Positions 5,019-64,000 of a DNA stretch of 64,000 bases are shown piece by piece. Source of the DNA: Escherichia coli phage vB_EcoS_Ace; sequence record MT833283.1; one strand, written 5' to 3'. A program made the position numbers and the translations under genes. The notes beneath the pieces are model-generated. The model ran no database searches. It saw nothing but the letters and a program-made list of their open reading frames with translations, and was not told where the DNA came from. Within the stretch, counting starts at the first letter, position 1, and each line of letters begins with the position of its first letter.

Positions 5019-5050
5019 TATCGTCGATTCCTTATAATATCTAAGTTTAC

Positions 5051-5073
5051 CGCCGATAGGCTTTAAGATGTTC
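5051..5073. repeat. inverted repeat arm (CCGATAGGCTTTAAGATGTTCCC)
   Basis: partner of 4768-4790; the two arms bracket ORF 4800..5018. Confidence 0.6.
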
Positions 5074-5770
5074 CCTAATTTTTAAAGAGCATGGCAGGGT
5101 TTTGAAAGGTCAAACAGACTGTCAATCGCTGTTATCCCCGCCGTGTAGTTCGTCATTGCCGCCCTACGTGATAAATAATAGGAGAATACCGAGAAGGGCG
5201 CAAGCGTATTTTTGTAAAGAAACGTAAAGAAAACCACTACTCGCAAACTTCCAGCGGCGCATTAAATTTAATGAAACGGGCGCGCGAATAACACCAAAAC
5301 AACCATTTTAGCAAGTAATTTTTTCATTTATATCTGCTCTAGGGTACTTGACAAAATCTAAAATCCTCGTGGTGAGGTTTTCTCGGTGTACCCCTTATGA
5401 TTGCCTATCTTTTCCTTTGAGGCGCTTAGAATGCGTTACAGAGCGTTTTAGACCCTGTTAATAACTTATACAAAAAGCAAAAATGAAATTTAATGAGTTA
5501 TCCACTTGATTTTTCAAAAAAGTATTTTCTGCTGTTATTTTTCATTGACAAATAAGTCTGGACGTGCATCAGAGCATTAGCAGACTAATAATCGCTAGGA
5601 TGATAATCACGCTGGTGGATTGTAACAGCCGAAACAGTTAGTAGACTATTAATACTCTAAAAATCTATTAGCCAACTAACTATTTCATAATATATAATAT
5701 ACACATAAATTAATGAGAAATAATAACTATGAGAAACTATCGGGCTAAGTGAGAACCACTATCATTTAGG

Positions 5771-5840
5771 TTATGCACAAAGCTATCCACAGCACAAAAT
5801 AACTTGACGCAATAGGCGACGTTTTGGCGACTTATCCACA
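5771..5840. promoter_or_regulatory. cluster of DnaA-box-like 9-mers (TTATGCACA, CTATCCACA, TTATCCACA)
   Basis: three matches to TTATNCACA within 70 bp; further copies at 9460-9468 and 9521-9529. Confidence 0.5.
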
Positions 5841-5880
5841 GACTTATATACAGGTTATCCTACTGTATAAATATACAGGG
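5831..5880. repeat. left arm of ~50-bp inverted repeat carrying DnaA box TTATCCACA and LexA-box-like palindrome CTGT-N8-ACAG
   Basis: about 45/50 identity to reverse complement of 9421-9470. Confidence 0.7.
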
Positions 5881-9735: not shown

Positions 9736-10476
9736 TGTGCAAATCCGACATTTGCCCCCACGGATTACGTGCCAGTGTGCATGTGCGAATCCGACAATTT
9801 TTGGTAGTGTGCAAATCCGATGGGAAATATTTTTTATATGTGCGAATCCGACAATGAATTTTCCTAAAAACTCCAGCAATCCACAACTGCGATGCAATCC
9901 AGCTGGATTTACTAGAATATGTGCAAATACGACAAGTGTTAAGGTGTGCAAAACCGACAAGATTTTTGTGACTTCGATGAGAGGGTGTATGATTGTGTGA
10001 GTTTGGGGAGAAGTGCGAATCCGACGAGGTTTTTGGGAGGAACTATGGAGGGTGCAGCTGTGGTGGTGCTTCAGCACCGGTTTGCTGCGTTTTTGGGGAT
10101 AATGTGGGATGTTTTGGCTAGAATTGAGATTAGTGGAGATAAAGCGAAATTTTATTAGCAAAATGGGGCAAAATCGCTTGACAAGTGAAAATTCCTGTGG
10201 CTCTAAAAACTCAGGCAAATACGGGCCTTCGGCCCGAAATAATGCTGCTATTTTCAGTGTTCCTAAAAACTTTGGAGACTCCTATCAATGTGCAAATCCG
10301 ACCATAAATTTCTAGAAACATAGTGTGCAAATCCGACAGTAAAATCCAGAAATGTGTTTTGGAAAAATGTTGTCTAGAAATAACCGCCCTCCCCATAACC
10401 GCCCTGTATTAAACCGCCTATTGCTGGAGTTTCTAGGAACAGGAGAAACTGCCCTATAACATGGGCAAATACGACA
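9736..10476. repeat. iteron-like array, about 10 same-orientation copies of 15-bp motif TGTGCRAATCCGACA
   Basis: copies start near 9736, 9782, 9808, 9839, 9920, 9945, 10012, 10289, 10324, 10463; irregular spacing; interleaved TTCCTAAAAAC/TCTAGAAA motifs and three AACCGCC repeats at 10381-10420. Confidence 0.65.
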
Positions 10477-10813
10477 GGGTTTTCCTAGAAACTTAGGAGT
10501 CTACTAGAAAGTGTTGTGCCATCCTAGGAAGAGTGGCGGCAACAAGTGTATCATCTTGAATGTGAATTATGTGGTCAAAAGTTTTACCTTTAATTTAAGT
10601 ATAAGATCCCCAAGGATTGTGAGAGATGCTCCACCCCTGGGATACGAATTGCGTGAGATGGTACAAAACTTCTGAAGATTTCCCTAGCCCTCCGACGAGC
10701 TACGGGGGAAATAGAAGTTTCCCATCCACCATCCGTATCCGGGTGGATCTCTTTATTCTATGTTATTTCATAGAGTTATTATAACATGCAGAAATCATAA
10801 CGTCAAGTAGAGT

Positions 10814-38494: not shown

Positions 38495-38524
38495 ATTTGA
38501 TTCCTCTCTCAAATTTATAAATAT

Positions 38525-38553
38525 ATTATACAGAAATTTTCTATATTAAGCAA
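38525..38553 (-). promoter_or_regulatory. sigma70 promoter (TATAAT / TTGCTT)
   Basis: minus strand; 17-bp spacer. Confidence 0.6.
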
Positions 38554-40335: not shown

Positions 40336-40365
40336 GTTTGATTCCTCTCTCAAATTTATAAATAT

Positions 40366-40394
40366 ATTATACAGAGAATTTAGCATTCAAGCAA
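40366..40394 (-). promoter_or_regulatory. sigma70 promoter (TATAAT / TTGCTT) for nadR-like/pnuC
   Basis: minus strand; 17-bp spacer. Confidence 0.6.
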
Positions 40395-42374: not shown

Positions 42375-43247
42375 ATTGATTCCTTTTGTTAGGTATTTTT
42401 AAGAACTCTCGAAAAAGCTCTTAAAGATACCCGGCGGTAGGTAGGGTCAGCCCCCTCAGATTAAGCTCTGCAGCCCTTCCGTCAGACAATATCCTCCAGT
42501 TTAAGTCAGGGTGACTTTGTGGTTATGTTCTCCGTATGTGAAGAACTCGGTTAGGCTTAGGTCATGACTCCCAGCCTACTGCTGCCACTCAACAGGAATT
42601 ATCGCGAATTACCTGTACTATTGGGCACCATTAGTGACATCTCTCATGCCAGCATTTCCCACTCTCATATTCACGCGGTCTGGTAGAATCACACCTCCGA
42701 TTTTCGATGCGAAGCTGGATGCCTAGTCTCTATGTTAAACGGGGCACACACTAGGCAGTGATCCCGAGTTCCGAGTTTGGTTGAGGCCGTCAGGTTTCCT
42801 CGTGGTTTAGCTGTTTCGATTCTAACCTAATACTGATCAGGCGGCGTACCTCCTGAACCGTCATAGTATGTACTCCAGCAGCGAATGCTTATCCGGTATA
42901 AGCCCGAGTTATCCGATTCTTTCCGACCGCAGGATTCGAACCTGCATCTTCCACCAGTTACGGTTTAATATTACCGTTTATACTAGGACGGCAGTGTTAT
43001 CACATAAGTCAGTTCGACACCCCACTAACATAAACTAGAGAAGAGTTTACGAGATTTCGGGACAGCTCCCGTGTTTTCCGCAGATTTTCAGTTCCCTATC
43101 AATAGCAATAAGCGTTAGCTCGTAGCCTCTCTCAGAGTACTTACTAGTCTCCAACTCACCGACTCTATTCAGTGGAATAGCTATCCTAGTAGGAATCACT
43201 AAACTCACTCAGCGTAATCGGCTCGCTGTTCTCTACTTTATGAATTT

Positions 43248-43276
43248 ATTATACAGAATTTTGAAGCGTTTAGCAA
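43248..43276 (-). promoter_or_regulatory. sigma70 promoter (TATAAT / TTGCTA) reading into ORF-free region 42375-43247
   Basis: minus strand; 17-bp spacer; no SD/ATG follows. Confidence 0.6.
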
Positions 43277-43284
43277 ACCAATTT

Positions 43285-45267: not shown

Positions 45268-45295
45268 AGGAGCCTCGTCTCATCAATTTAAAAAT

Positions 45296-45324
45296 ATATT
45301 ATACAGATAATTAAACTGTTTTGC
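45296..45324 (-). promoter_or_regulatory. sigma70 promoter (TATAAT / TTGCAA)
   Basis: minus strand; 17-bp spacer. Confidence 0.55.
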
Positions 45325-45711
45325 AAATACATTTTTAGATTGAGAGAACTAGTAAACCGATAAACAGCCTAGAGGCGCCACAGGCCATATCTTATGAGCC
45401 ATGTACCTTTGATCTAGGGTTTGAATCATCAACGAATACTTTGCATCTTTTAGCTTTAGAAGGTTAGAAGTTTGAGTGCTTTTAACTTTTCAGCTTTCAT
45501 ACTTGAGCGTTGATCTTTGAAGTTGTGTTGGTACTACCAACGACCTTTTGTTTTTACGTGTCAGATTAAATGTCTGATGTAATAAACATAATCTCCAATA
45601 GATTATACTTTATAGTATGGTCAGCGGTCTTATTTAACCTCGTATTTCAACCGCTGCTGCGAGGTAAGATGCTTGGGCTTTCGTCTACCGATTTACTAGT
45701 CTTTTAAATTA

Positions 45712-46586: not shown

Positions 46587-46626
46587 AATTATTTTCCTTT
46601 TGTTGTTCTCTCAAATTTATGAATAT

Positions 46627-46655
46627 ATTATACAGAATTTTGGAGCTGAAAGCAA
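46627..46655 (-). promoter_or_regulatory. sigma70 promoter (TATAAT / TTGCTT)
   Basis: minus strand; 17-bp spacer. Confidence 0.6.
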
Positions 46656-53288: not shown

Positions 53289-55619
53289 TTATAGGTTACA
53301 ACCACCGGATGCACAACCTGCTGCTTCTTCACCAGCTCCACCACCATTTTCAGTGTTGAAGTTAGCGTAGTACCAAGTTTTCCAACCGTACTTAACAGCA
53401 GTCATGAAATCACGAACTACTACTGGACCAGGAATGATTTCATTCTCAAACTTGGTGTAGTCATAGTACATATTCGTACTGATAGACTGACTGAAAAATT
53501 TCTGCATGGTTGCTACCCATTTGATCCACTCGATACGATCTACATCATAAGCCAGTTTATAGCTCATTAATATATCCCAATCGGTTGCACCTGGAGCAAT
53601 TGCAATTACTTTATTCACTGCACTACCCTTGATAGATACAATCTTACGAGGTGGTTCAATAGAGTTAGTAACACCTAGCAGTACAGAGGAACTTTCACCC
53701 GGCATCTGAGCAGTCAGAACAGAGTTACGCATACCGTATTTCAGGATATCTGCACGCAGAGATTCCCAATCCATTTCTAGACCTACGGTTACCAGTTCAT
53801 CAACAGTTTTCTTGTACGTGTCGATTACCAGAGTTCCTTTGGATGGCTTAGTACGATTAAACCAGTCACATGCACCTTGTTCTTTAGCCAGACGTACAGA
53901 TGCTTTGTGCAGGAAGTAAGACAGTTTTTCAGCTTCACGGTGAATCCAGTTACGAGCTTCAACACCTTCGTAAGCCAAACCTTCTGCTGCCATTGCACCT
54001 GCTGCGTTCATCAGGCCAATACCAACGTTTCGACGTTTCTTAGCCGTGTATTCCATAGTTGGGAATGGGTAATCCTGAATCTCGATGATTGTATCAACTA
54101 ATTTCAGAAGGATGTAGCAAGTTTTCTCCCATTCAGCCAGAGATTCCATGCGGCCTAGTACAACACCACCTAAGTTACACAGAGATACTTCACCAATATC
54201 TTCTGGACGCATATCGTCTAACTGATCTTGGGTTTTATACAGTTCCGTAATGTGATGGAATGGACGGGTTGGCTGAGTAATTTCAACACAAAGGTTGGTC
54301 ATACGAATCGGGTCAAGGAAGTTACCATGACGGTTAGATTCACCAATGTGATGAGCATACATACGCCCTGTTTCCATACGGATACGTAACCAAGTATCTA
54401 GGATTTCTTTTGCAGAGATTCTAGGAGCTGCTGGAATTGTTTTTCCTTCGTGGTCGGTCTTTGTAAGAGATGCCACACGTTTCTCCGCTGCCACGTAGAT
54501 TTCTTCAAACTTAGCCTCATCTTCACCATAAAACGCTTCATGAACTTCTGGTGCGTAGAAGTAGGACATTAGCGTAATATCTTCGTTTTTCAGGTAACGT
54601 TTTAACAGAAGGTTGTTAAAGCTCAGAGAATAATCCATCTTATCGATTTTATTCTCGTCTGTAGCACGTTGCTGCTTAACCTGCATCAACTGAATGATTT
54701 CAGGATCGAAGTATGGATAAGACACAGTAGCAGAACCGCCACGGGTTTGCTGAGTGTTAGCTTTTACTGAACGGTCAATGTGTCTATAATATGGCAGTTT
54801 TCCGGAATGCGGGAATGCCCCATTTCGCACCGGATCAGCAATTGATCGGCTTTCAAGATGATACCCGATTCCCGCTCTGGCTGCGACCATTTTGAAGACG
54901 ATATGCTCGGCTGTGTCGATTGAATCGAGGGTATCAGTACTATCAACAAGACAACAAGAAGCAAAACCGCGGTCGCTGCTCCTAAGACCCACGAGAGGTG
55001 GAGTAGGAACGTTGATTTTGTGGAGCGACATTGCATTGTAGAGGTCGATTGCATCTAGAATTGTCCAGTTAGGTTGAGATAACATCGCCATTGCCATACC
55101 CATGTAAGCAAACTGCGGGGTTTCATAAATTTCACCAGTTGCAATATTACGACGGGAATACTTGTCGAAGAACTGTTTCAGCCCACCACTGGTGAATAAA
55201 CGATCGCGATCATGATCAATAACTTGATTCAGAGCATCAAACTGATCATCGCTAATCCATGCACTCATGTCTTCCCAAGCTCCAACACTAACCATATGAT
55301 CGTGGAAGAAACGCAGAGAAGGAGGCTCGAAGGAGTCATATAGACGTTTACGCATCTGCGCAAGACGTAATTCCTTAGCTGGCACATCATATGCTGGGTT
55401 ATCTTTGATAAGACCTTCAGCGGCTTTAATTAACGCATCCATTAGGGTGTCGGAGTCTACAACACCTTTAGGTAGAGTTTTTTGAGCAGCCATAGTGATG
55501 GATGACCAGCTTACATCAACTGTTTTGCAGCCATACACTGCCCAACCATTGAGTTTTTCAGGAGCAAAGTCTTCTACAGTACCGTCACGTTTGATTACTT
55601 TTTCTATGCGATGGCTCAT
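53289..55619 (-). CDS. nrdA: ribonucleotide reductase large subunit (NrdA)
   Basis: class I RNR alpha with ATP-cone (VIKRDGT) and C-terminal Cys pair; start set at ATG 55619 after AAGGAAAG SD rather than the longer track ORF. Confidence 0.75.
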   Translation of the reverse strand: MSHRIEKVIKRDGTVEDFAPEKLNGWAVYGCKTVDVSWSSITMAAQKTLPKGVVDSDTLMDALIKAAEGLIKDNPAYDVPAKELRLAQMRKRLYDSFEPPSLRFFHDHMVSVGAWEDMSAWISDDQFDALNQVIDHDRDRLFTSGGLKQFFDKYSRRNIATGEIYETPQFAYMGMAMAMLSQPNWTILDAIDLYNAMSLHKINVPTPPLVGLRSSDRGFASCCLVDSTDTLDSIDTAEHIVFKMVAARAGIGYHLESRSIADPVRNGAFPHSGKLPYYRHIDRSVKANTQQTRGGSATVSYPYFDPEIIQLMQVKQQRATDENKIDKMDYSLSFNNLLLKRYLKNEDITLMSYFYAPEVHEAFYGEDEAKFEEIYVAAEKRVASLTKTDHEGKTIPAAPRISAKEILDTWLRIRMETGRMYAHHIGESNRHGNFLDPIRMTNLCVEITQPTRPFHHITELYKTQDQLDDMRPEDIGEVSLCNLGGVVLGRMESLAEWEKTCYILLKLVDTIIEIQDYPFPTMEYTAKKRRNVGIGLMNAAGAMAAEGLAYEGVEARNWIHREAEKLSYFLHKASVRLAKEQGACDWFNRTKPSKGTLVIDTYKKTVDELVTVGLEMDWESLRADILKYGMRNSVLTAQMPGESSSVLLGVTNSIEPPRKIVSIKGSAVNKVIAIAPGATDWDILMSYKLAYDVDRIEWIKWVATMQKFFSQSISTNMYYDYTKFENEIIPGPVVVRDFMTAVKYGWKTWYYANFNTENGGGAGEEAAGCASGGCNL

Positions 55620-55740
55620 TTGGCTTTCCTTTTTGTAGTTATCAGGATTTAGGAAATAGTTTACTTTATTCTCAGTCATTTGGCAAATAAAATTTTCTGA
55701 TAGAAAAGGCCCGAGTATTTTCATACCCAGGCCTTCTATA

Positions 55741-55983
55741 TTACCAGTCTAGTTTTTCGGCTTGATTAATTACTTTTGCTTTCGCATTCGCCCTCAGAAG
55801 AATATCTACTGATGTTGAAAGTTCATTATAATTAAAAGGCCGATTTGGATTAGAGGCTACAATTTTCCACGCTAGGGTAGTCTTAGGACTTTCTTCCCCT
55901 TCCTTACGTGTAATCATATTAGCAGCACTCAGTGAAGTACGGTGGATCTTAGTTTTGCGGTGCAGATGTACGACGTTTCCCAT
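55741..55983 (-). CDS. hypothetical protein (80 aa)
   Basis: ORF in track between phoH and nrdA. Confidence 0.4.
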   Translation of the reverse strand: MGNVVHLHRKTKIHRTSLSAANMITRKEGEESPKTTLAWKIVASNPNRPFNYNELSTSVDILLRANAKAKVINQAEKLDW

Positions 55984-55984
55984 A

Positions 55985-56746
55985 TTACACCTTCCCCATA
56001 TCCTTAAAGATATCGTAGAATGCTTTAGACTCTGGTGAGCGAACGTTGTCGATCAGTTCGATCATAGAGAAAGGAGAGTTTTCATACTTCTCATAGACTT
56101 CCATAAGAAGTGCTAGACCTGAATCACCCTTGATGTCTTTCTGAGCTATATCTCCACAGATAATTAAACGACAATCTTGTCCTACACGAGTCAAAAGACA
56201 GATCATTGCTTCAACGGAGATATTCTGAGCTTCATCGACAATTACATAGGAGTTGTTGAAAGTTCGGCCACGGGCATGTTCGATAGCCAGGAATTTGATT
56301 TTCTGACGTTCGACATATCCTTTGTAGGCATGATCACCGATTGCCCATTTCATACCATCGGCTATTGGTTCCAACCAAGGCTCTAGCTTTTCTGCTAGAT
56401 CACCTGGGAGCATACCAAGAGATTTACCTAGAGGTTCGTTCGGACGCACGAGGATCACTTGCTCAATATCTGAGTGAATGTCTACGAGTTCCTGAGCTGC
56501 AAGAACGGATGGAATAAAGGTTTTACCAGTACCTGGTTCACCTATACCCACAGTCACTGTGTTGTTCTTGATCATATTGATATATGATTTTTGCTCACGG
56601 TTTTTACCAACTAGGGATTTAGCAACTGGATTGGCGTAATCACCAGAGAAATCTGCTTGAATTACGTTACTCTCGTACTTGTTGCCACGCTTTCTTGAAC
56701 CATTGCGGTTCTCTCTTTTTTGACGTGCTTTTCCCATAAATAACAC
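55985..56746 (-). CDS. phoH: PhoH-like ATPase
   Basis: Walker A GEPGTGKTF and PhoH-like core. Confidence 0.75.
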   Translation of the reverse strand: MLFMGKARQKRENRNGSRKRGNKYESNVIQADFSGDYANPVAKSLVGKNREQKSYINMIKNNTVTVGIGEPGTGKTFIPSVLAAQELVDIHSDIEQVILVRPNEPLGKSLGMLPGDLAEKLEPWLEPIADGMKWAIGDHAYKGYVERQKIKFLAIEHARGRTFNNSYVIVDEAQNISVEAMICLLTRVGQDCRLIICGDIAQKDIKGDSGLALLMEVYEKYENSPFSMIELIDNVRSPESKAFYDIFKDMGKV

Positions 56747-59005: not shown

Positions 59006-59034
59006 TTGCTTTCTAGCTAAAACTTATGTATAAT
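59006..59034 (+). promoter_or_regulatory. sigma70 promoter (TTGCTT-17-TATAAT) with plus-strand copy of the early leader/SD cassette
   Basis: followed by TGATTTATAAATTTGAGAGGAG and ATG at 59064. Confidence 0.6.
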
Positions 59035-59063
59035 TGATTTATAAATTTGAGAGGAGAAAACGA

Positions 59064-59282: not shown

Positions 59283-60112
59283 TTATTGTTAGTGGTGCAG
59301 GTTTGAGTGTAGATAGTGGTGTTCGTGCTTTCCGTACTGATACTGCTAGTGGGAAATCCTTGTGGGATGAGTACGATCTAGAGGAAGTATGTAGCTTGCC
59401 TAACTTTGAAGCTGGCTTCCGTCGCTTCTGTGGTGAAGATGATCCTAACTACTTCAGTGCTCGTTTCCCTGGCATTGATGAAGATGGTAACGATCTGTAT
59501 CTCAAGACTCATGAGTTCTACAACATGCGTCGTCAGGAATTACAGACTGTTGAGCCTAACATTGCCCATCTGCGAATTGCAGAATGGTTCCAGCGTTATG
59601 ATGCGGATAGCGTGAAGAACTTCACTACTAACGTTGATGACCTTCTGGAACGTGCTGGTATCCCTCGTGATGAAATCATTCACGCTCACGGGTACTTGAA
59701 AGAGGTGATCTATCGTCAGGGTCGCAATCAAATCATCGAAGATGTTGGGTATACTGCGATTGCCCCTGAAGATTACGAATGGGTAAAACCAAACGTAACA
59801 TTCTTTGGTGAGACGGCTCCGTGGTATATGGGTCAGATTAACCTGTTTGATACGCTTACTAGCAATGATATGGTTATTGTGGTAGGTTGTAGCAACCAAG
59901 TGATTGACTTCAACTGGGAACTATTCCCTGCTGTATGTCGTGGAACTAAGATGATGGTTGTTAACCCTCAAGTTCGCTATGATGAACAGCTTGAATATGA
60001 GAAACGTGGTGTTACTGTATGGCGGGCTGGAGCTGCCGAAGTTTTTGGTAACAAGCATTTCATTGGTCAAGTAGAAGCCTTTATGGAAGGAACTATTTAT
60101 GTCGCATCCTAA
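59270..60112 (+). CDS. Sir2-family (sirtuin-like) protein
   Basis: GAGLSVDSGVRAFR, TTNVDDLLERAG, HAHG, VTFFGE, VVGCS blocks; no Zn-ribbon Cys pairs seen. Confidence 0.6.
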   Translation: MRRLIIVSGAGLSVDSGVRAFRTDTASGKSLWDEYDLEEVCSLPNFEAGFRRFCGEDDPNYFSARFPGIDEDGNDLYLKTHEFYNMRRQELQTVEPNIAHLRIAEWFQRYDADSVKNFTTNVDDLLERAGIPRDEIIHAHGYLKEVIYRQGRNQIIEDVGYTAIAPEDYEWVKPNVTFFGETAPWYMGQINLFDTLTSNDMVIVVGCSNQVIDFNWELFPAVCRGTKMMVVNPQVRYDEQLEYEKRGVTVWRAGAAEVFGNKHFIGQVEAFMEGTIYVAS

Positions 60113-60314
60113 TAAGGGTAAAATGGGAGATATGGGATCAGACCCCCGATTTTACAAATCGCCTAAAAGACACCCTGATGATATAATTGTATGGCCAGAT
60201 AAAACATGGTGCTATCGTGAAGAGTTGTGGGAAATGGATTATATGTCAGATGATTTCTGTGTAATCTATATCGACACACCGGAACATAAAGCGTTCCTAG
60301 AGGAGAACGAATGA
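60099..60314 (+). CDS. hypothetical protein (71 aa)
   Basis: ORF in track. Confidence 0.4.
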   Translation: MSHPNKGKMGDMGSDPRFYKSPKRHPDDIIVWPDKTWCYREELWEMDYMSDDFCVIYIDTPEHKAFLEENE

Positions 60315-60496
60315 TAAAGAAGATTTTTAAGGGTATCTGGAAAGGTCTAGTATGGTTTGTCAACCTAATCGGTATGATTACCATTTATTCTCTGTTCCTA
60401 TCTGTTATGTGGGGTAAAGGTGAATTGAAGGTTCCGGTTCCTTTTACTGAGGAAGTTAAAGTCTGGACGTGGGATGCTACTGGTGGAAATAAGTAA
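60311..60496 (+). CDS. small membrane protein (61 aa)
   Basis: ORF in track; hydrophobic. Confidence 0.4.
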   Translation: MIKKIFKGIWKGLVWFVNLIGMITIYSLFLSVMWGKGELKVPVPFTEEVKVWTWDATGGNK

Positions 60497-60989
60497 TACT
60501 CCTGTGATTTTCCTGGATATTGATGGGGTGCTCAATTCGAGCATCTCTCACCATCATGCTCCAGACAGTGAAAAGCTGTTCTTTGGCAGTGATTGGGTTT
60601 ATAAGCCATTACTCCAGGCTTTTCAGAACTTTCTTAAACCCTCCCCAATAATGATTGTTGGGGTCTCTTCATGGTTTTCTGTACGAAATGAAATGGAGAA
60701 CGTTCAGATTATGACCGGACTCGGTTTGATCGATCGTTTCCTTGGTACAACAGATTTTACTGGAGGTGGTTTATCTCGGGGTAATTCTGTTTTACGTTTC
60801 GTCGAAAAATATAAGCTCAAGCATTGGTGTGTCCTAGATGATGCTGGTGCTATGATGTACCAATTCCCTACTGTTATTGTAAATGGCAGGACTGGAATAA
60901 ACCTTCAAGATTTAAATGCTATCAGCTATATGCTGGAGTTTAGTCCAGATCTTGAAATGTGTAAGGCTCTTCAGAAACTTAAGGTGTAA
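60474..60989 (+). CDS. HAD-superfamily phosphatase-like protein
   Basis: HAD motif I FLDIDGVLN; start codon uncertain. Confidence 0.5.
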   Translation: MLLVEISNTPVIFLDIDGVLNSSISHHHAPDSEKLFFGSDWVYKPLLQAFQNFLKPSPIMIVGVSSWFSVRNEMENVQIMTGLGLIDRFLGTTDFTGGGLSRGNSVLRFVEKYKLKHWCVLDDAGAMMYQFPTVIVNGRTGINLQDLNAISYMLEFSPDLEMCKALQKLKV

Positions 60990-60991
60990 AT

Positions 60992-61420
60992 ATGTTCGAT
61001 AATCTTTTCATGAAAGAGGTAAACCCTATGCTCCTCAACTTCTGGCGTTCTCTCCCTAATGGTATGTATAATGAAACCATCAATCTGCTTAAGATTTGGT
61101 GTGAGAATAACGATATCTTCCTATCCTTTAAAGGCCCACTAGAGGAAGCTCCATGTATTGGAGTTAGCGTGGATTTAGGTGAGGGAGTAGAAGAAATTGT
61201 AGACTGGAAAGAACTCGATGAAATGGGTCTGGTTTTTGCCTTGAACCATAAGCTGTTTATGCCTGCAAATCACCGTCTTATTGTAAACTATCGCACTGGT
61301 GAAGCTCCTGCTTTCCAGGTAAATGAACGTGAGGGCTGGTCATATTCGCCCAAAGAAGTAAATGAGGGGATTCAGAAACTTCGTCGTTTCGGGTATATGA
61401 TCCCAGGTTTAACTGCTTAA
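60992..61420 (+). CDS. hypothetical protein (142 aa), paralog of 61430..61825
   Basis: shared C-terminal block (W.EL..MGL..ALN...F.P......TGE.P...V......Y......E....L.R.G...PGL). Confidence 0.55.
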   Translation: MFDNLFMKEVNPMLLNFWRSLPNGMYNETINLLKIWCENNDIFLSFKGPLEEAPCIGVSVDLGEGVEEIVDWKELDEMGLVFALNHKLFMPANHRLIVNYRTGEAPAFQVNEREGWSYSPKEVNEGIQKLRRFGYMIPGLTA

Positions 61421-61429
61421 GGAGGCAGA

Positions 61430-61825
61430 ATGGAACAAGTATTTTGGCGTCAGATAGATCCTAGTTTGGTAGAGCGTGCTGAAGGGCTCCTTGCACGTTG
61501 GTTGGGGGTTGACAAGGTTAGTGTAACATTTCCGTTTACTTCTGTAACAGACCCTAGTGTAGGTGTCTTTGTGGACGAAGATGAAGATGATGGTTGGGAA
61601 GCTGACTGGAATGAATTGTCCAGTATGGGCTTGATTGTTGCCCTCAACTTCTCTATATTCCATCCACGTGGCTTAGCCATTACACGTGACCCCGAAACTG
61701 GTGAATCCCCTTATCTTTTGCAAGTAGAAGATGATATTTGGGAGTACACCGAAGATATTCTCGAAGAAGCTAAAGGTCAATTAAATCGCATTGGGATCTA
61801 TGTTCCAGGCCTAAATGATGATTGA
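61430..61825 (+). CDS. hypothetical protein (131 aa), paralog of 60992..61420
   Basis: tandem duplicate; GGAGG SD upstream. Confidence 0.55.
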   Translation: MEQVFWRQIDPSLVERAEGLLARWLGVDKVSVTFPFTSVTDPSVGVFVDEDEDDGWEADWNELSSMGLIVALNFSIFHPRGLAITRDPETGESPYLLQVEDDIWEYTEDILEEAKGQLNRIGIYVPGLNDD

Positions 61826-61916
61826 TTTTCATTAGTCCAATCCTGATTACCGAGTCATTTTGGCTCGGTTTTCTCTGTGCTCAAAGACACTGATAGCACC
61901 TTCGGAAAAATTTTAC

Positions 61917-61945
61917 TTGCAGGATGCTCAAAATCTTGATATAAT
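61917..61945 (+). promoter_or_regulatory. sigma70 promoter (TTGCAG-17-TATAAT) heading a ~500-nt ORF-free leader
   Basis: plus strand; A-tract upstream; no start codon follows the leader. Confidence 0.5.
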
Positions 61946-62438
61946 ATTTATATTGAATTGAGAGACATTAGTAAAAATTGATTTTGCTAATTTTTCTTGT
62001 TTACAATCCGCAATACGGAACAGTTAGGCTGCCCCATTAAGGGTTGTTTTAACTATTACTAGTGTTTATACTGCATTAGTTAATTATCAATTAAGTGATC
62101 TGCGTACCCTGAATTCGGAAAGGTAAATCCAAACCGTGCATATTTAGCTCGTTATATAGGCAGAGCTTTATATGGGGGTGCGAACGAAAAGAGCAGCGAA
62201 TGGTGACACGTCCAGTAGCCACCTACCAATAGGATAGTGAGGGCAATCAGAATAGGCTTAGCGGCCAATGACCTAGGTTCTGATCTGGATAAGAGTTAAG
62301 AGAGCGCAGCACTGAGGTATGATAACTTATTCATACTGCTTGATGATTAATGTTTGTGTAAATGGTAGTAATAGTTGTTCTATTCTTTTGAATAGTCCTA
62401 AAGAAAGATATCCGAATAACCAACATAGGAGTATTGTT

Positions 62439-64000
62439 GTGTTCTCAATCCTACAAGGTCACGCAGGATTTTCCAGAGATAAAGCCACTGGCATCTGGAA
62501 AGAGATCAAAGTGGAAGATTACACCTTTGCAAAGCGATTCTCTAAAGAGCATCCAGAAGGTAAACCAGCTTCCATGCCCTTCAAATTTGATGTACTTGAA
62601 GAACTTGACCCGCAAAACCTTGCTGAAATGTTACCTATCATGCGTCGTCTTACCAAAGACCCGCATATTGTAGCTATTCGTGGTAAATGTCTAGCTCCAA
62701 AAGATAATGTGCGTCGTACCAGAGGAAACTTTAACGTATCCAATCCTAGTCATATTATCGCTATGGACGTGGATGGTATTGTAGATACTGGTGGCTATGA
62801 CAAGTTTAATCTTGTTGGCATGGCACGTCATATTATTAAGATGTTGAATAGTATTAGTGAGGATATGTTTCCTCTTGATGCAGGGTTTATTGCTCATGCA
62901 TCGTCTTCGGCTGGATTAAAACCAGGTATCCGAATGCACTTAATGCTAGAATCTAATGTCAAGGTAACGCAGGGGCAATTAAAATTCTTATTTACATCCA
63001 TCAATGACAGTAGTAAGCAAAAGTATGGCTTTGATATTGCTGACTTAGCTTATTATTCTTCTGTTCAGCTTCACTATTTCGCAGATCCCTTATTTGATGA
63101 TGGTATAGTCGATCCGTTTAAAGCGGAGAATAAACCACGTCTTGTGTATGTTAAGGGTTCGAAAGTGAATCTACCCAATAACCTAGTTGACTTTGAAACA
63201 ACTAGAGGTGAGTTTAAAGAAGAATTCTACTCCTTACTTGACCAAATTAAAGGCAAGAAGGCTGCATCTGATAAAGTGGAAGAAACCATCAGCGAACTAG
63301 AAGAAGCTGAGGATGGGGTGTACCTGCGTATTATCCCAAAACTTTATCACAGAGCGTTAGAAGATGGTGTTGACTTTACGTGGTTAGAACGTGAGATTAA
63401 ACCAGCTTTATCTGAATATATTGCAACTAAAGATAATAGTCGTAATATTCAAGATTACTTTAATAACGGTCGTAAGCAGGCTCTAAAAGCCTTTGTGAAT
63501 AACTCCAAACGTGAGATTCCACCCAACTTAAAAGGTGTACCACTAAAGCGTCTGGACACAGATTCACCGCCAGAAGTTCCATACTTGAAGATTAACATTG
63601 TACCCCCAAAAGGACATTTAACATTTGTTAAGGCAAGTCTTGGTACAGGTAAAACCACAGCAGTAACTAAGTGGCTAGATGCAGGTGTTCTTCCAGGAAA
63701 CTTTATTGCAATCACGAATACTAGGGCACTTGTATCTTCAAACGCGAAGAAATTCGGTGCTGGTCAGTATGATAAGTCAGTTGATATGCTGAACTTCAAA
63801 CGTGGTGCTATTGATCGTATGTCTTCAACTATTCACTCTATCCATAAGTTCAAGAGCTTTGTGGGTCAGATTGATACGATCTTTATTGATGAATGTGACG
63901 CAGTAATGAATGATCTGTTATTCGCCCCGGTTGTTAAAAACCGTCGTGAATGTATTCAGGTTCTTCGCGATATTCTTATTACTGCAAAAACGGTTATCTT
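62439..64000 (+). CDS. putative replicative helicase-like P-loop NTPase, 5' partial (runs off window)
   Basis: open frame from GTG at 62439 (AGGAG 7 nt upstream) to window end; Walker A LGTGKTT and IFIDECD (Walker B/DExx); not in ORF track because it has no stop. Confidence 0.55.
   Translation, partial: MFSILQGHAGFSRDKATGIWKEIKVEDYTFAKRFSKEHPEGKPASMPFKFDVLEELDPQNLAEMLPIMRRLTKDPHIVAIRGKCLAPKDNVRRTRGNFNVSNPSHIIAMDVDGIVDTGGYDKFNLVGMARHIIKMLNSISEDMFPLDAGFIAHASSSAGLKPGIRMHLMLESNVKVTQGQLKFLFTSINDSSKQKYGFDIADLAYYSSVQLHYFADPLFDDGIVDPFKAENKPRLVYVKGSKVNLPNNLVDFETTRGEFKEEFYSLLDQIKGKKAASDKVEETISELEEAEDGVYLRIIPKLYHRALEDGVDFTWLEREIKPALSEYIATKDNSRNIQDYFNNGRKQALKAFVNNSKREIPPNLKGVPLKRLDTDSPPEVPYLKINIVPPKGHLTFVKASLGTGKTTAVTKWLDAGVLPGNFIAITNTRALVSSNAKKFGAGQYDKSVDMLNFKRGAIDRMSSTIHSIHKFKSFVGQIDTIFIDECDAVMNDLLFAPVVKNRRECIQVLRDILITAKTVI

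What the first reader, a model, noticed from the sequence alone, without database searches (positions are those of the whole stretch)
61826..62438. About 600-bp ORF-free region with its own promoter immediately upstream of the helicase-like gene
A sigma70 promoter (61917-61945) is followed by about 500 nt without any start codon in SD context before the GTG of the helicase-like ORF (62439). The region could be a structured leader or small RNA, or a replication-origin-type locus placed next to the replication gene.
Basis: inference. Interest (0 to 1): 0.4.

Follow-up and report, generated by a model that had tools for sequence, protein, structure and literature searches.

The report
Large structured RNA before T5 helicase gene
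The 600-base "empty" stretch in front of the replication helicase gene of this T5-like phage encodes a large folded RNA of about 485 nucleotides that matches no catalogued RNA family and whose job is still unknown.

Summary
Window 61826-62438 is a conserved gap in a T5-like (Epseptimavirus) genome, between a DUF7415 gene and the UL9-like helicase gene (T5.108, "replication origin binding protein"). The only start codon with a ribosome-binding site is the helicase GTG at 62439.

The gap is not a spacer. It encodes a roughly 485-nt RNA on the + strand:
- a 5' hairpin;
- an almost invariant block (GAUACGGAACAGUNNGGCUGCCCCAU);
- a helix of about 30 bp whose arms lie 318-338 nt apart in seven sequence types (about 325 nt, interrupted, in Klebsiella phages);
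- a multi-hairpin core with conserved islands (GAUC, GAGAAGUG, GCUUAGCGGCC);
- a 3' hairpin just before the ribosome-binding site.

On 12 sequences, 95.5% of cells in 30 curated pairs are paired and 21 pairs change on both sides (0 of 500 shuffles reach this). No Rfam family matches.

Function is inferred only. I favour RNase III cutting the long helix, which would release a stable core RNA and a short-leader helicase mRNA. A purely cis-regulatory leader or an origin transcript remain open. Iterons are absent, and the GC-skew minimum lies 6 kb away.

The parts
61849..61876 (+). Rho-independent terminator closing the upstream operon (stem ACCGAGTC/GGCTCGGT followed by a T run)
   Evidence: invariant in T5, HASG4 and phiR2-01; annotated as a terminator in T5.
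61917..61945 (+). T5-type early sigma-70 promoter: -35 TTGCAG, 17-nt spacer, extended -10 TGaTATAAT. Start site inferred at about 61952.
   Evidence: The downstream element TATAAT-N13-TGAGAG is shared by 5 promoters in the window against 0.14 expected.
61960..61998 (+). P1, the 5'-terminal hairpin (GAGAGA-C-AUUAGUAAAA / UUUUGCUAAU-U-UUUCUU)
   Evidence: Same shape at the same place in 7 sequence types with different sequences. Cognate arms average -17.4 kcal/mol against -5.7 for non-cognate arms.
62010..62037 (+). Almost invariant joining block GCAAUACGGAACAGUUAGGCUGCCCCAU. It may contain the small hairpin CAGU-UAG-GCUG.
   Evidence: 97-100% identical across T5-likes. The core motif is kept in the L031, My1 and Klebsiella types.
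62050..62081 (+). P2, 5' arm of the long helix
   Evidence: 31 pairs with 62345-62377, 7 of them G.U. The base of the helix covaries. Found by the repeat finder as inverted repeat I1.
62345..62377 (+). P2, 3' arm of the long helix
   Evidence: Cognate duplexes are -21 to -34 kcal/mol against a mean of -9.3 for non-cognate arms in 8 types. Arm-to-arm span is 318-338 nt in the seven types with an uninterrupted helix. Klebsiella phages have an interrupted helix of about 325 nt span.
62095..62105 (+). P3, 5' strand (GUG-AU-CUGCGU). P3 closes the roughly 200-nt inner core.
   Evidence: Pairs with 62304-62312. Four sequence variants all pair: CUGCGU/GCGCAG, CUACAC/GUGUAG, CCAUAU/GUAUGG, CUAGAA/UUCUAG.
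62304..62312 (+). P3, 3' strand (GCGCAG-CAC)
   Evidence: 98.1% of cells paired, and 6 of 9 pairs change on both sides.
62139..62174 (+). Inner hairpin CAUAUUUAGCUC...GAGCUUUAUAUG
   Evidence: Hairpins at the same place with different stems in phiR2-01 and Klebsiella phages, read directly from the sequences.
62198..62205 (+). Conserved island GAAUGGUG (GAGAAGUG in most other types), preceded by a small hairpin
62246..62284 (+). P6 hairpin: stem AUCAGAA/UUCUGAU. The loop carries GGCUUAGCGGCC (62255-62266), whose core CUUAGCGG is invariant.
   Evidence: 5 of 7 pairs change on both sides. Eight different stems close the same loop. The motif CTTAGCGG is unique in the window.
62316..62337 (+). P7 hairpin GGUAUGA/UCAUACU
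   Evidence: 4 of 4 pairs change on both sides..
62380..62395 (+). P8, the 3' hairpin CUAUUC-UUUU-GAAUAG, followed by the conserved UCCUAAAGAAA
   Evidence: L031 has CUUUCC/GGAAAG and Klebsiella phages have CUAUC/GAUAG.
62427..62441 (+). Shine-Dalgarno AGGAG (62427-62431) and GTG start (62439) of the UL9-like SF2 helicase gene (T5.108 homologue), which runs off the window

Best explanation
The gap is the gene for a large structured RNA. A T5-type early promoter starts transcription at about 61952. The first roughly 485 nt fold into:
- a 5'-terminal hairpin (P1);
- a nearly invariant joining block;
- a helix of about 30 bp (P2) that encloses a compact core of about 265 nt with several hairpins and conserved loop and junction nucleotides;
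- a short 3' hairpin (P8) just ahead of the helicase ribosome-binding site.

No terminator follows, so the RNA is made as the front part of the helicase early transcript.

My preferred mechanism is inferred, not shown. Host RNase III cuts the long P2 helix, as it does the stalks that flank rRNAs. This would release the core as a separate stable RNA of about 300 nt and leave a helicase mRNA with a short leader. The core would then act as an RNA in its own right, through its conserved loops, on a protein partner tied to early replication. Its synthesis would be coupled one-to-one with that of the helicase mRNA.

How sure each step is:
- structured RNA on the + strand: about 0.9;
- co-transcribed with the helicase gene: about 0.8;
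- RNase III processing: about 0.5;
- independent (trans) function of the core: about 0.4.
For: Structure:
- RNAalifold on 12 sequences of 5 sequence types predicts 52 pairs, 27 of them with compensatory changes.
- Thirty curated pairs in 4 helices are 95.5% paired. Twenty-one pairs change on both sides, 0 of 500 shuffles reach this, and slid controls are 29-48% paired.
- For P1, P2, P3, P6, P7 and P8, the arms of one phage type pair far better with each other than with arms of other types.
- P2 arms are 318-338 nt apart in seven sequence types, though the arm sequences are unrelated. Klebsiella phages have an interrupted long-range helix of the same span.
- The + strand folds better than the - strand in all 8 types, and the helices hold many G.U pairs.
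- The window RNA has a folding z-score of -3.3. The covariation-constrained fold costs only 0.5 kcal/mol against the MFE.

Conservation:
- 61920-62040 is 97-98% identical, the highest value in 4 kb.
- The type-A core is 92-98% identical, against 80-88% for the flanking genes.

Transcription:
- The promoter is annotated in T5.
- No terminator lies between the promoter and the GTG.

RNase III:
- P2 has 31 pairs, and the enzyme accommodates about 22 bp (PMC6212723).

Independence from the helicase start site:
- The core-to-SD distance varies from about 50-60 nt in most types to about 170 nt in Providencia phages and about 290 nt in Proteus phages.
- Proteus phages have a second 12/12 consensus promoter directly before the helicase ATG yet keep the RNA.
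Against: - No expression data were available: no RNA-seq, 5'/3'-end mapping or Northern.
- No own terminator or other 3'-end signal exists, so a separate RNA depends wholly on the unproven processing.
- In Klebsiella phages the long helix is interrupted by internal loops, so an RNase III site is not obviously universal.
- The RNA always lies directly upstream of the helicase gene and on the same strand. This fits a cis role at least as well.
- No partner or target was identified. Complements of the conserved loops occur in the window only at chance level.
- Membership of the Providencia and Proteus RNAs rests on shared motifs and architecture, not on a covariance model.
Confidence: 0.45

Rival explanations
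1. The RNA is a purely cis-acting leader. It only sets the amount, timing or stability of the helicase mRNA. The 5' hairpin would protect the transcript. Processing or refolding of the leader, or a bound protein or metabolite, would open or close the ribosome-binding site, for example through UCCUA (62396-62400) or the pyrimidine strand of P1 pairing with AGGAG. No product acts elsewhere.
For: - The RNA is always directly upstream of, and co-oriented with, the helicase gene, with no terminator between them.
- The 3' flank (P8, UCCUAAAGAAA, SD) is conserved.
- The MFE pairs UCCUA with UAGGA.
- RNAalifold pairs UUCUUG with CAGGAG.
Against: - The distance from the core to the SD is not conserved (about 50-290 nt).
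- Proteus phages place a consensus promoter between the RNA and the helicase gene.
- The proposed anti-SD pairings are only 4-6 bp and do not covary.
- A five-hairpin core of about 265 nt of constant size is far larger than known expression platforms need.
- No Rfam riboswitch or leader family matches.
Confidence: 0.25
2. The locus is a transcription-dependent origin of replication. The strong promoter fires into an AT-rich, almost invariant segment (61946-62060). The transcript forms an R-loop or primer there, and the neighbouring UL9-like helicase loads at it. This would work like T4 oriF/oriG, the T7 primary origin or ColE1 RNA II. The fold of the RNA would position or limit the hybrid.
For: - The locus is next to the gene of the only UL9/Herpes_ori_bp-like protein (PMC3632103).
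- GC content is 25% at 61900-61999.
- 98% DNA identity over 61920-62040 is more than RNA pairing alone requires.
- The core transcript is purine-rich: GC and AT skew are both positive over 62100-62300.
- In T5 the locus lies at 48.5% of the genome, and origins were mapped near the centre (10.1101/866236).
Against: - There are no iterons or repeated binding sites.
- The cumulative GC-skew minimum is at 54-56 kb, where gene orientation switches, not here.
- No antisense promoter of the RNA I type lies in the 5' part.
- A tightly folded RNA competes with hybrid formation.
- Recombitron strand bias in T5 suggested replication from one end (PMC10055335).
- EM work reported multiple origins (cited in PMC3632103).
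Confidence: 0.2
3. The constraint is on the DNA only (an origin or protein-binding site), and the apparent RNA structure is incidental.
For: Very high DNA identity of 61920-62040. The long inverted repeat is also visible at the DNA level at 81% complementarity.
Against: - Compensatory changes in helices whose arms lie up to 330 nt apart.
- Seven of the 31 P2 pairs are G.U, which would be mismatches in DNA and A.C on the other strand.
- The + strand folds better than the - strand in all 8 types.
Confidence: 0.04
4. The gap is a decayed gene or a small-protein gene, or it is non-functional spacer DNA.
For: Some GenBank records annotate small hypothetical proteins in the gap or start the helicase gene upstream. 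Small ORFs of 20-43 codons exist.
Against: - No start codon has an SD.
- The ORFs are not conserved, and indels of 1 and 3 nt occur.
- An optional 97-nt insertion cuts the 20-codon ORF at 61978-62040.
- The region is more conserved than the flanking genes and shows covariation.
Confidence: 0.02

Closest known systems
RNase III processing stalks (flanks of 16S/23S rRNA in rRNA operons; T7 early mRNA and lambda N-leader RNase III sites)
   Same: A long helix is formed by sequences on either side of a structured domain inside a longer transcript. The helix (31 pairs) exceeds the roughly 22 bp the enzyme needs. A host enzyme acting on phage early transcripts is well established for T7 and lambda.
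   Different: Cleavage has not been shown here. The enclosed domain is a new RNA of about 265 nt, not rRNA. The Klebsiella-phage version of the helix is interrupted by internal loops.
Large 'ornate' bacterial and phage non-coding RNAs (GOLLD, ROOL, OLE)
   Same: Several hundred nucleotides long, many helices, conserved loops and junctions, phage-borne (GOLLD and ROOL), function unknown (PMC12286853).
   Different: No sequence or structure match to any Rfam model. It is smaller than GOLLD and ROOL. It sits in the leader of a replication gene rather than beside tRNA genes. It was seen only in enterobacterial Demerecviridae.
ColE1 RNA II pre-primer; T4 oriF/oriG and the T7 primary origin
   Same: A promoter-driven, folded transcript of about 500 nt (RNA II), or a promoter plus an AT-rich downstream element (T4, T7), placed at the replication locus.
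   Different: No antisense RNA I-type promoter. No evidence of an R-loop or of initiation here. The transcript continues into a protein-coding gene. The GC-skew minimum lies elsewhere.
Long autoregulatory mRNA leaders and riboswitches (e.g. the rplJ L10 leader, T-box, cobalamin)
   Same: A structured 5' leader of some hundreds of nucleotides upstream of the regulated gene, with conserved loops in variable stems.
   Different: No family matches. There is no terminator/antiterminator pair. The distance to the ribosome-binding site is variable. Proteus phages bypass the RNA with a second promoter.

Membership tests
Any Rfam 15 family (including RNase P, tmRNA, 6S, GOLLD, ROOL, group I/II introns, riboswitches, r-protein leaders) | Covariance-model score at or above the family's gathering score | tested here: not met
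   No match in the gap at the gathering threshold. At E<=10 there were only three weak matches in 61700-62600: one at the upstream terminator, one at the promoter and one inside the helicase gene, none in the folded RNA. Nothing was found in the homologous leaders of 6 other phages at E<=5.
Structured RNA (generic) | Helices kept by compensatory base changes | tested here: met
   21 of 30 pairs change on both sides, 95.5% of cells are paired, 0 of 500 shuffles reach this, and slid controls are 29-48% paired. Searches give the same answer by arm swapping.
Structured RNA (generic) | Strand-specific folding (G.U pairs; one strand more stable) | tested here: met
   the + strand is more stable in 8 of 8 types.
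Structured RNA (generic) | The region is transcribed | not testable with these tools
   Only a promoter match and the T5 annotation are available. No expression data are held.
RNase III substrate / processing stalk | Near-continuous dsRNA helix of about 22 bp or more | tested here: met
   31 pairs in segments of 12, 9 and 10 in the window. 24-31 pairs in 8 sequences representing 7 types. Interrupted in Klebsiella phages.
RNase III substrate / processing stalk | Staggered double cleavage in vivo that is lost in rnc mutants | not testable with these tools
   Needs end-mapping experiments.
Replication origin (phage or plasmid type) | Arrays of repeated initiator-binding sites (iterons) | tested here: not met
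   only four two-copy repeats of 9-15 nt.
Replication origin (phage or plasmid type) | AT-rich unwinding element next to the initiator gene | tested here: met
   GC is 0.25 at 61900-61999. The helicase gene carries a Herpes_ori_bp domain.
Replication origin (phage or plasmid type) | Strand-composition switch at the site | tested here: not met
   The cumulative GC-skew minimum is at 54-56 kb and is confounded with the switch of gene orientation.
Replication origin (phage or plasmid type) | Mapped initiation of DNA synthesis | not testable with these tools
   The only lead is the literature statement that T5 origins lie near the centre of the molecule (10.1101/866236).
ColE1-type RNA II/RNA I system | Antisense RNA promoter opposite the 5' part of the pre-primer | tested here: not met
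   No - strand promoter-like site between 61950 and 62430.
Riboswitch / attenuator leader | Sensor domain coupled to a terminator or an SD-sequestering helix at a fixed distance | tested here: not met
   No terminator in the leader. The core-to-SD distance is about 50-290 nt. Anti-SD pairings do not covary.
Protein-coding gene / small ORF | Start codon with SD and a reading frame kept among relatives | tested here: not met

The most novel reading that the evidence does not exclude
The RNA is a new class of large phage RNA that works together with the UL9-like bipolar helicase to start T5 DNA replication. It would either mark or prime the long-sought primary origin near the genome centre (an RNA II-like pre-primer in a virulent phage), or assemble with the helicase as a ribonucleoprotein.
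Probability: 0.12. Interest if true: 0.85.

Novelty: new variant of a known kind. Interest (0 to 1): 0.62.

Why it matters
T5 is one of the classical model phages, yet its origin of replication and the control of its replication genes are still undefined. Large structured RNAs of more than 300 nt are rare in bacteria and phages, and each new class has so far pointed to unknown biology (GOLLD, ROOL, OLE).

This element has a structure supported by covariation. It is more conserved than the surrounding genes and is present in several hundred sequenced phages that infect Escherichia, Salmonella, Klebsiella, Yersinia, Pectobacterium and probably Providencia and Proteus. Many of these phages are used or proposed for biocontrol.

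It gives a concrete, mutable target for asking how T5-like phages regulate or initiate replication. It also shows that the small "hypothetical proteins" annotated in this gap, and the upstream helicase starts, are annotation errors.

Tried and rejected
- **Collection scans.** Only L104 and L163, plus a doubtful L215, also carry CTTAGCGG.
- **MAFFT on divergent parts.** MAFFT followed by RNAalifold on the core alone and on P1 alone gave no structure, because MAFFT cannot align the unrelated stems. A trial alignment of the P6-P7 region (A4) had stems out of register by 1-3 columns. I therefore built no covariance model and used arm-swapping tests instead.
- **Generic long-helix scan.** A scan for long-range helices upstream of the helicase gene in distant (Vibrio and metagenomic) relatives had too high a background to say anything: coding controls reached -29 kcal/mol.
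- **Ideas dropped for lack of conservation or covariation.**
  - An alternative hairpin AACAGUUA/UAACUGUU competing with P2 (perfect in T5, absent in L031).
  - GAUAC pairing with GUAUU between the SD and the GTG (only in T5 and Epseptimavirus).
  - A pseudoknot GGCUGC:GCGGCC between the joining block and the P6 loop. It is compatible in most types, but RNAalifold prefers a local hairpin and Providencia uses another register.
  - A kissing interaction between the loops of the 62139-62174 hairpin and P7 (4-5 nt only).
- **UL9 box I.** The complement of the HSV UL9 box I core (GTGCGAACG, 62178-62186) is unique in the window but present only in sequence types A and C. I treat it as chance.
- **Trans targets.** Searches for targets complementary to the conserved loops gave chance-level hits.
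- **Resemblances by eye.** Similarities to RNase P CR-V, to the 23S L11-binding region and to cobalamin-riboswitch motifs were not backed by Rfam models.
- **Literature.** Nine searches ran and three more calls failed on term syntax. None found a description of this RNA.

Full report
**What the window is.** The window comes from a T5-like phage (Demerecviridae, Epseptimavirus). The gap is 99.4% identical to Salmonella phage beppo, and the window carries 29 tRNA genes. The finding covers the space between the second of two tandem DUF7415 genes (which ends at 61825) and the gene annotated "replication origin binding protein". That gene is the homologue of T5.108, an SF2 helicase with a marginal Herpes_ori_bp match. 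It appears to be the protein characterised biochemically as the bipolar "D2" helicase (PMC3632103), judging from the matching domain and Walker A positions.

**Check of the observation.**
- The promoter is at 61917-61945: -35 TTGCAG, a 17-nt spacer, and TGaTATAAT. T5 itself has an annotated terminator and promoter at the homologous sites.
- A terminator for the upstream operon is at 61849-61869.
- The only start codons preceded by a Shine-Dalgarno motif are GTG 62439 (AGGAG at 62427-62431), two out-of-frame TTGs beside it that share the same motif, and a trivial 2-codon ORF.
- The helicase frame is open upstream to ATG 62319, and the beppo annotation starts the gene about 96 nt upstream of the GTG. 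Those ATGs lack an SD, and 1-nt and 3-nt indels break the frame in T5.
- A gap of about 600 bp is kept in Tequintavirus, Epseptimavirus and Klebsiella Sugarlandvirus. It is longer in Providencia (about 630 nt) and Proteus (about 780 nt) phages.
- It is one of eight stretches of 490 nt or more in the window without an ORF of at least 70 aa. Several of the others fall in the tRNA-gene region.

**Conservation.**
- The segment 61920-62040 is 97-98% identical in all T5-like genomes compared. This is the highest value in a 4-kb profile; flanking genes are mostly 80-88%.
- The middle part (about 62060-62345) exists in at least three mutually unalignable sequence types among close relatives: A (window, T5), B (HASG4 and others) and C (phiR2-01). 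More distant relatives add further types: L031, Pectobacterium My1, Klebsiella, Providencia and Proteus.
- Short islands are kept in nearly all types: GAUACGGAACAGUNNGGCUGCCCCAU, GAUC, GAGAAGUG, GCUUAGCGGC, CAG and (G)CCACCCC.
- Within type A the core is 92-98% identical.
- Variable stems with fixed islands are the signature of a structured RNA.

**Structure.**
- Independent MFE folds of each type give the same architecture.
- P1 is a 5' hairpin starting about 8 nt after the inferred start site. It has the same shape in 7 types despite different sequences.
- P2 is a helix of 24-31 pairs. Its arms are 318-338 nt apart in the seven types with an uninterrupted helix, although the arm sequences are unrelated. 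Klebsiella phages have an interrupted version with the same span.
- Swapping arms between types destroys the pairing. P2 cognate duplexes are -21 to -34 kcal/mol, against a non-cognate mean of -9.3. The same holds for P1, P3, P6, P7 and P8.
- RNAalifold on 12 sequences predicted 52 pairs, 27 with compensatory changes.
- For 30 curated pairs (the base of P2, plus P3, P6 and P7), 95.5% of cells are paired and 21 pairs change on both sides. None of 500 shuffles reaches the observed values for four of the five measures. Sliding the partners by 1-3 columns drops pairing to 29-48%.
- Seven of the 31 P2 pairs in the window are G.U, and the + strand folds better than the - strand in all 8 types. The structure therefore belongs to an RNA transcribed in the helicase direction, not to the DNA.
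- The window RNA has a folding z-score of -3.3. A fold constrained to the covarying helices costs only 0.5 kcal/mol more than the MFE.

Coordinates of the elements in the window:

| Element | Window coordinates |
|---|---|
| P1 | 61960-61998 |
| Joining block | 62010-62037 |
| P2 | 62050-62081 with 62345-62377 |
| P3 | 62095-62105 with 62304-62312 |
| Inner hairpins | 62139-62174 and 62218-62244 |
| P6 (loop GGCUUAGCGGCC at 62255-62266) | 62246-62284 |
| P7 | 62316-62337 |
| P8 | 62380-62395 |
| SD / GTG | 62427-62431 / 62439 |

**Is it known?**
- No Rfam 15 family matches in the folded RNA, either at gathering scores or at E<=10 in the window, or at E<=5 in six homologous leaders.
- The joining-block motif occurs in IMG/VR only in T5-like contigs of about 96-123 kb.
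- Relatives whose helicase is 32-50% identical (Vibrio phages and metagenomic contigs) lack the motifs.
- T5 and most GenBank records annotate nothing here beyond the promoter and terminator. A few annotate small hypothetical proteins.
- Nine literature searches found no description of this RNA.

**How it probably works.**

*Shown:* it is a conserved, folded RNA on the + strand, behind a T5-type early promoter, with no terminator before the helicase gene.

*Inferred:*
- P2 is long enough for host RNase III, which accommodates about 22 bp (PMC6212723). It flanks a compact domain in the way rRNA processing stalks do. Cleavage would give a 5' fragment, a core RNA of about 300 nt and a helicase mRNA with a short leader.
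- Two facts argue that the core is more than an expression platform for the helicase start site. First, its distance to the SD varies from about 50-60 nt in most types to about 170 nt in Providencia and about 290 nt in Proteus phages. Second, Proteus phages put a second 12/12 consensus promoter directly before the helicase ATG and still keep the RNA.
- I therefore favour a processed, independently acting RNA whose synthesis is coupled to the helicase mRNA (about 0.4-0.45). A purely cis-regulatory leader comes second (about 0.25).

**The origin idea (about 0.2).**
- Circumstantial support:
  - the neighbouring UL9-like helicase gene;
  - a 25%-GC, 98%-conserved stretch right behind a strong promoter;
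  - a purine-rich transcript;
  - the position at 48.5% of the T5 genome, where origins were mapped (10.1101/866236).
- Against it:
  - there are no iterons;
  - the GC-skew minimum is 6 kb to the left, at the switch of gene orientation;
  - there is no antisense promoter;
  - a recombitron study suggests replication from one end (PMC10055335).
- A DNA-only function and a coding or junk reading are disfavoured by the covariation, the G.U pairs and the absence of a conserved ORF.

**Other points.**
- The sequence TATAAT-N13-TGAGAG is shared by five promoters in the window against 0.14 expected. From my own knowledge, it resembles the transcribed region of the T5 PN25 promoter. The 5' arm of P1 is therefore built on a general T5 early-promoter element.
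- Fifty-one phage records carry an optional 97-nt insertion between P1 and the joining block. It occurs once per genome, is 95-100% identical, is flanked by a TTTTTCTT direct repeat, and contains its own hairpin. It appears in type A, B and C backgrounds.
- One genome (L021) has window-like upstream genes but a type-B core. Recombination therefore occurs within the invariant 5' part.

**Limits.**
- There are no expression data.
- The inner core structure is only partly solved.
- Membership of the Providencia and Proteus RNAs rests on motifs and architecture.
- The sequences represent about seven independent types, so the covariation counts reflect few events, although these are multiple and consistent.

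Noticed in passing
L004:1652-1748 (phiR2-01); also L038, L017/L054, L019/L070, L033/L045. The insertion point in the window is after 61998.: An optional 97-nt module is inserted in the leader between P1 and the conserved block. It is flanked by a TTTTTCTT direct repeat and has its own 8-bp hairpin (AUUUACGG/CCGUAAAU). It is present once per genome in 51 phage records and appears in three different core backgrounds.
   Followed up: partly
window 38506-38530 (-), 40347-40371 (-), 46608-46632 (-), 59029-59053 (+), 61940-61964 (+): Five promoters share TATAAT-N13-TGAGAG (0.14 expected by chance). This is a T5 early-promoter downstream element resembling the transcribed region of PN25.
   Followed up: partly
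L035:1705-1733 and L035:2435-2464 (Proteus phage PL1): Two perfect 12/12 sigma-70 consensus promoters. One drives the RNA and the other sits 45 nt before the helicase ATG. About 290 nt of additional, apparently structured sequence lies between the RNA and the second promoter.
   Followed up: partly
window 60992-61420 and 61430-61825: Two tandem paralogous genes with DUF7415 (PF24187) lie directly upstream of the leader. Their function is unknown.
   Followed up: no
window 62178-62186: GTGCGAACG, the exact complement of the core of the HSV-1 UL9 box I (CGTTCGCAC), is unique in the window and lies inside the RNA core. It is present only in sequence types A and C, so it is probably chance. The box I sequence is recalled from memory.
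   Followed up: partly
window 5019-5854, 10219-10813, 42375-43284, 45268-45711: Other ORF-poor stretches of 440-910 nt. Rfam places one tRNA at 42921-42992, inside the third stretch. The first two may belong to the untranslated injection-stop region of the terminal repeat described for T5.
   Followed up: no
L021 (IMG/VR contig 2974607751) compared with window 60000-62100: A mosaic genome. It is 92-100% identical to the window through most of the upstream genes up to about 61500, but has a type-B RNA core and an 87%-identical helicase. Recombination has evidently occurred upstream of the core, the invariant 5' part of the leader being a likely crossover site.
   Followed up: no
NC_092682 (beppo) helicase CDS; PP735124, PP554579, OR067837: Probable annotation errors. 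In beppo the helicase gene is started about 96 nt upstream, inside the RNA. In the other records small hypothetical proteins are annotated within the non-coding leader.
   Followed up: partly
window 54000-56000: The cumulative GC-skew minimum of the window coincides with the switch from - strand to + strand genes (phoH-like versus nrdD). This is probably the 'origin' that GC-skew papers on T5-like phages report.
   Followed up: partly
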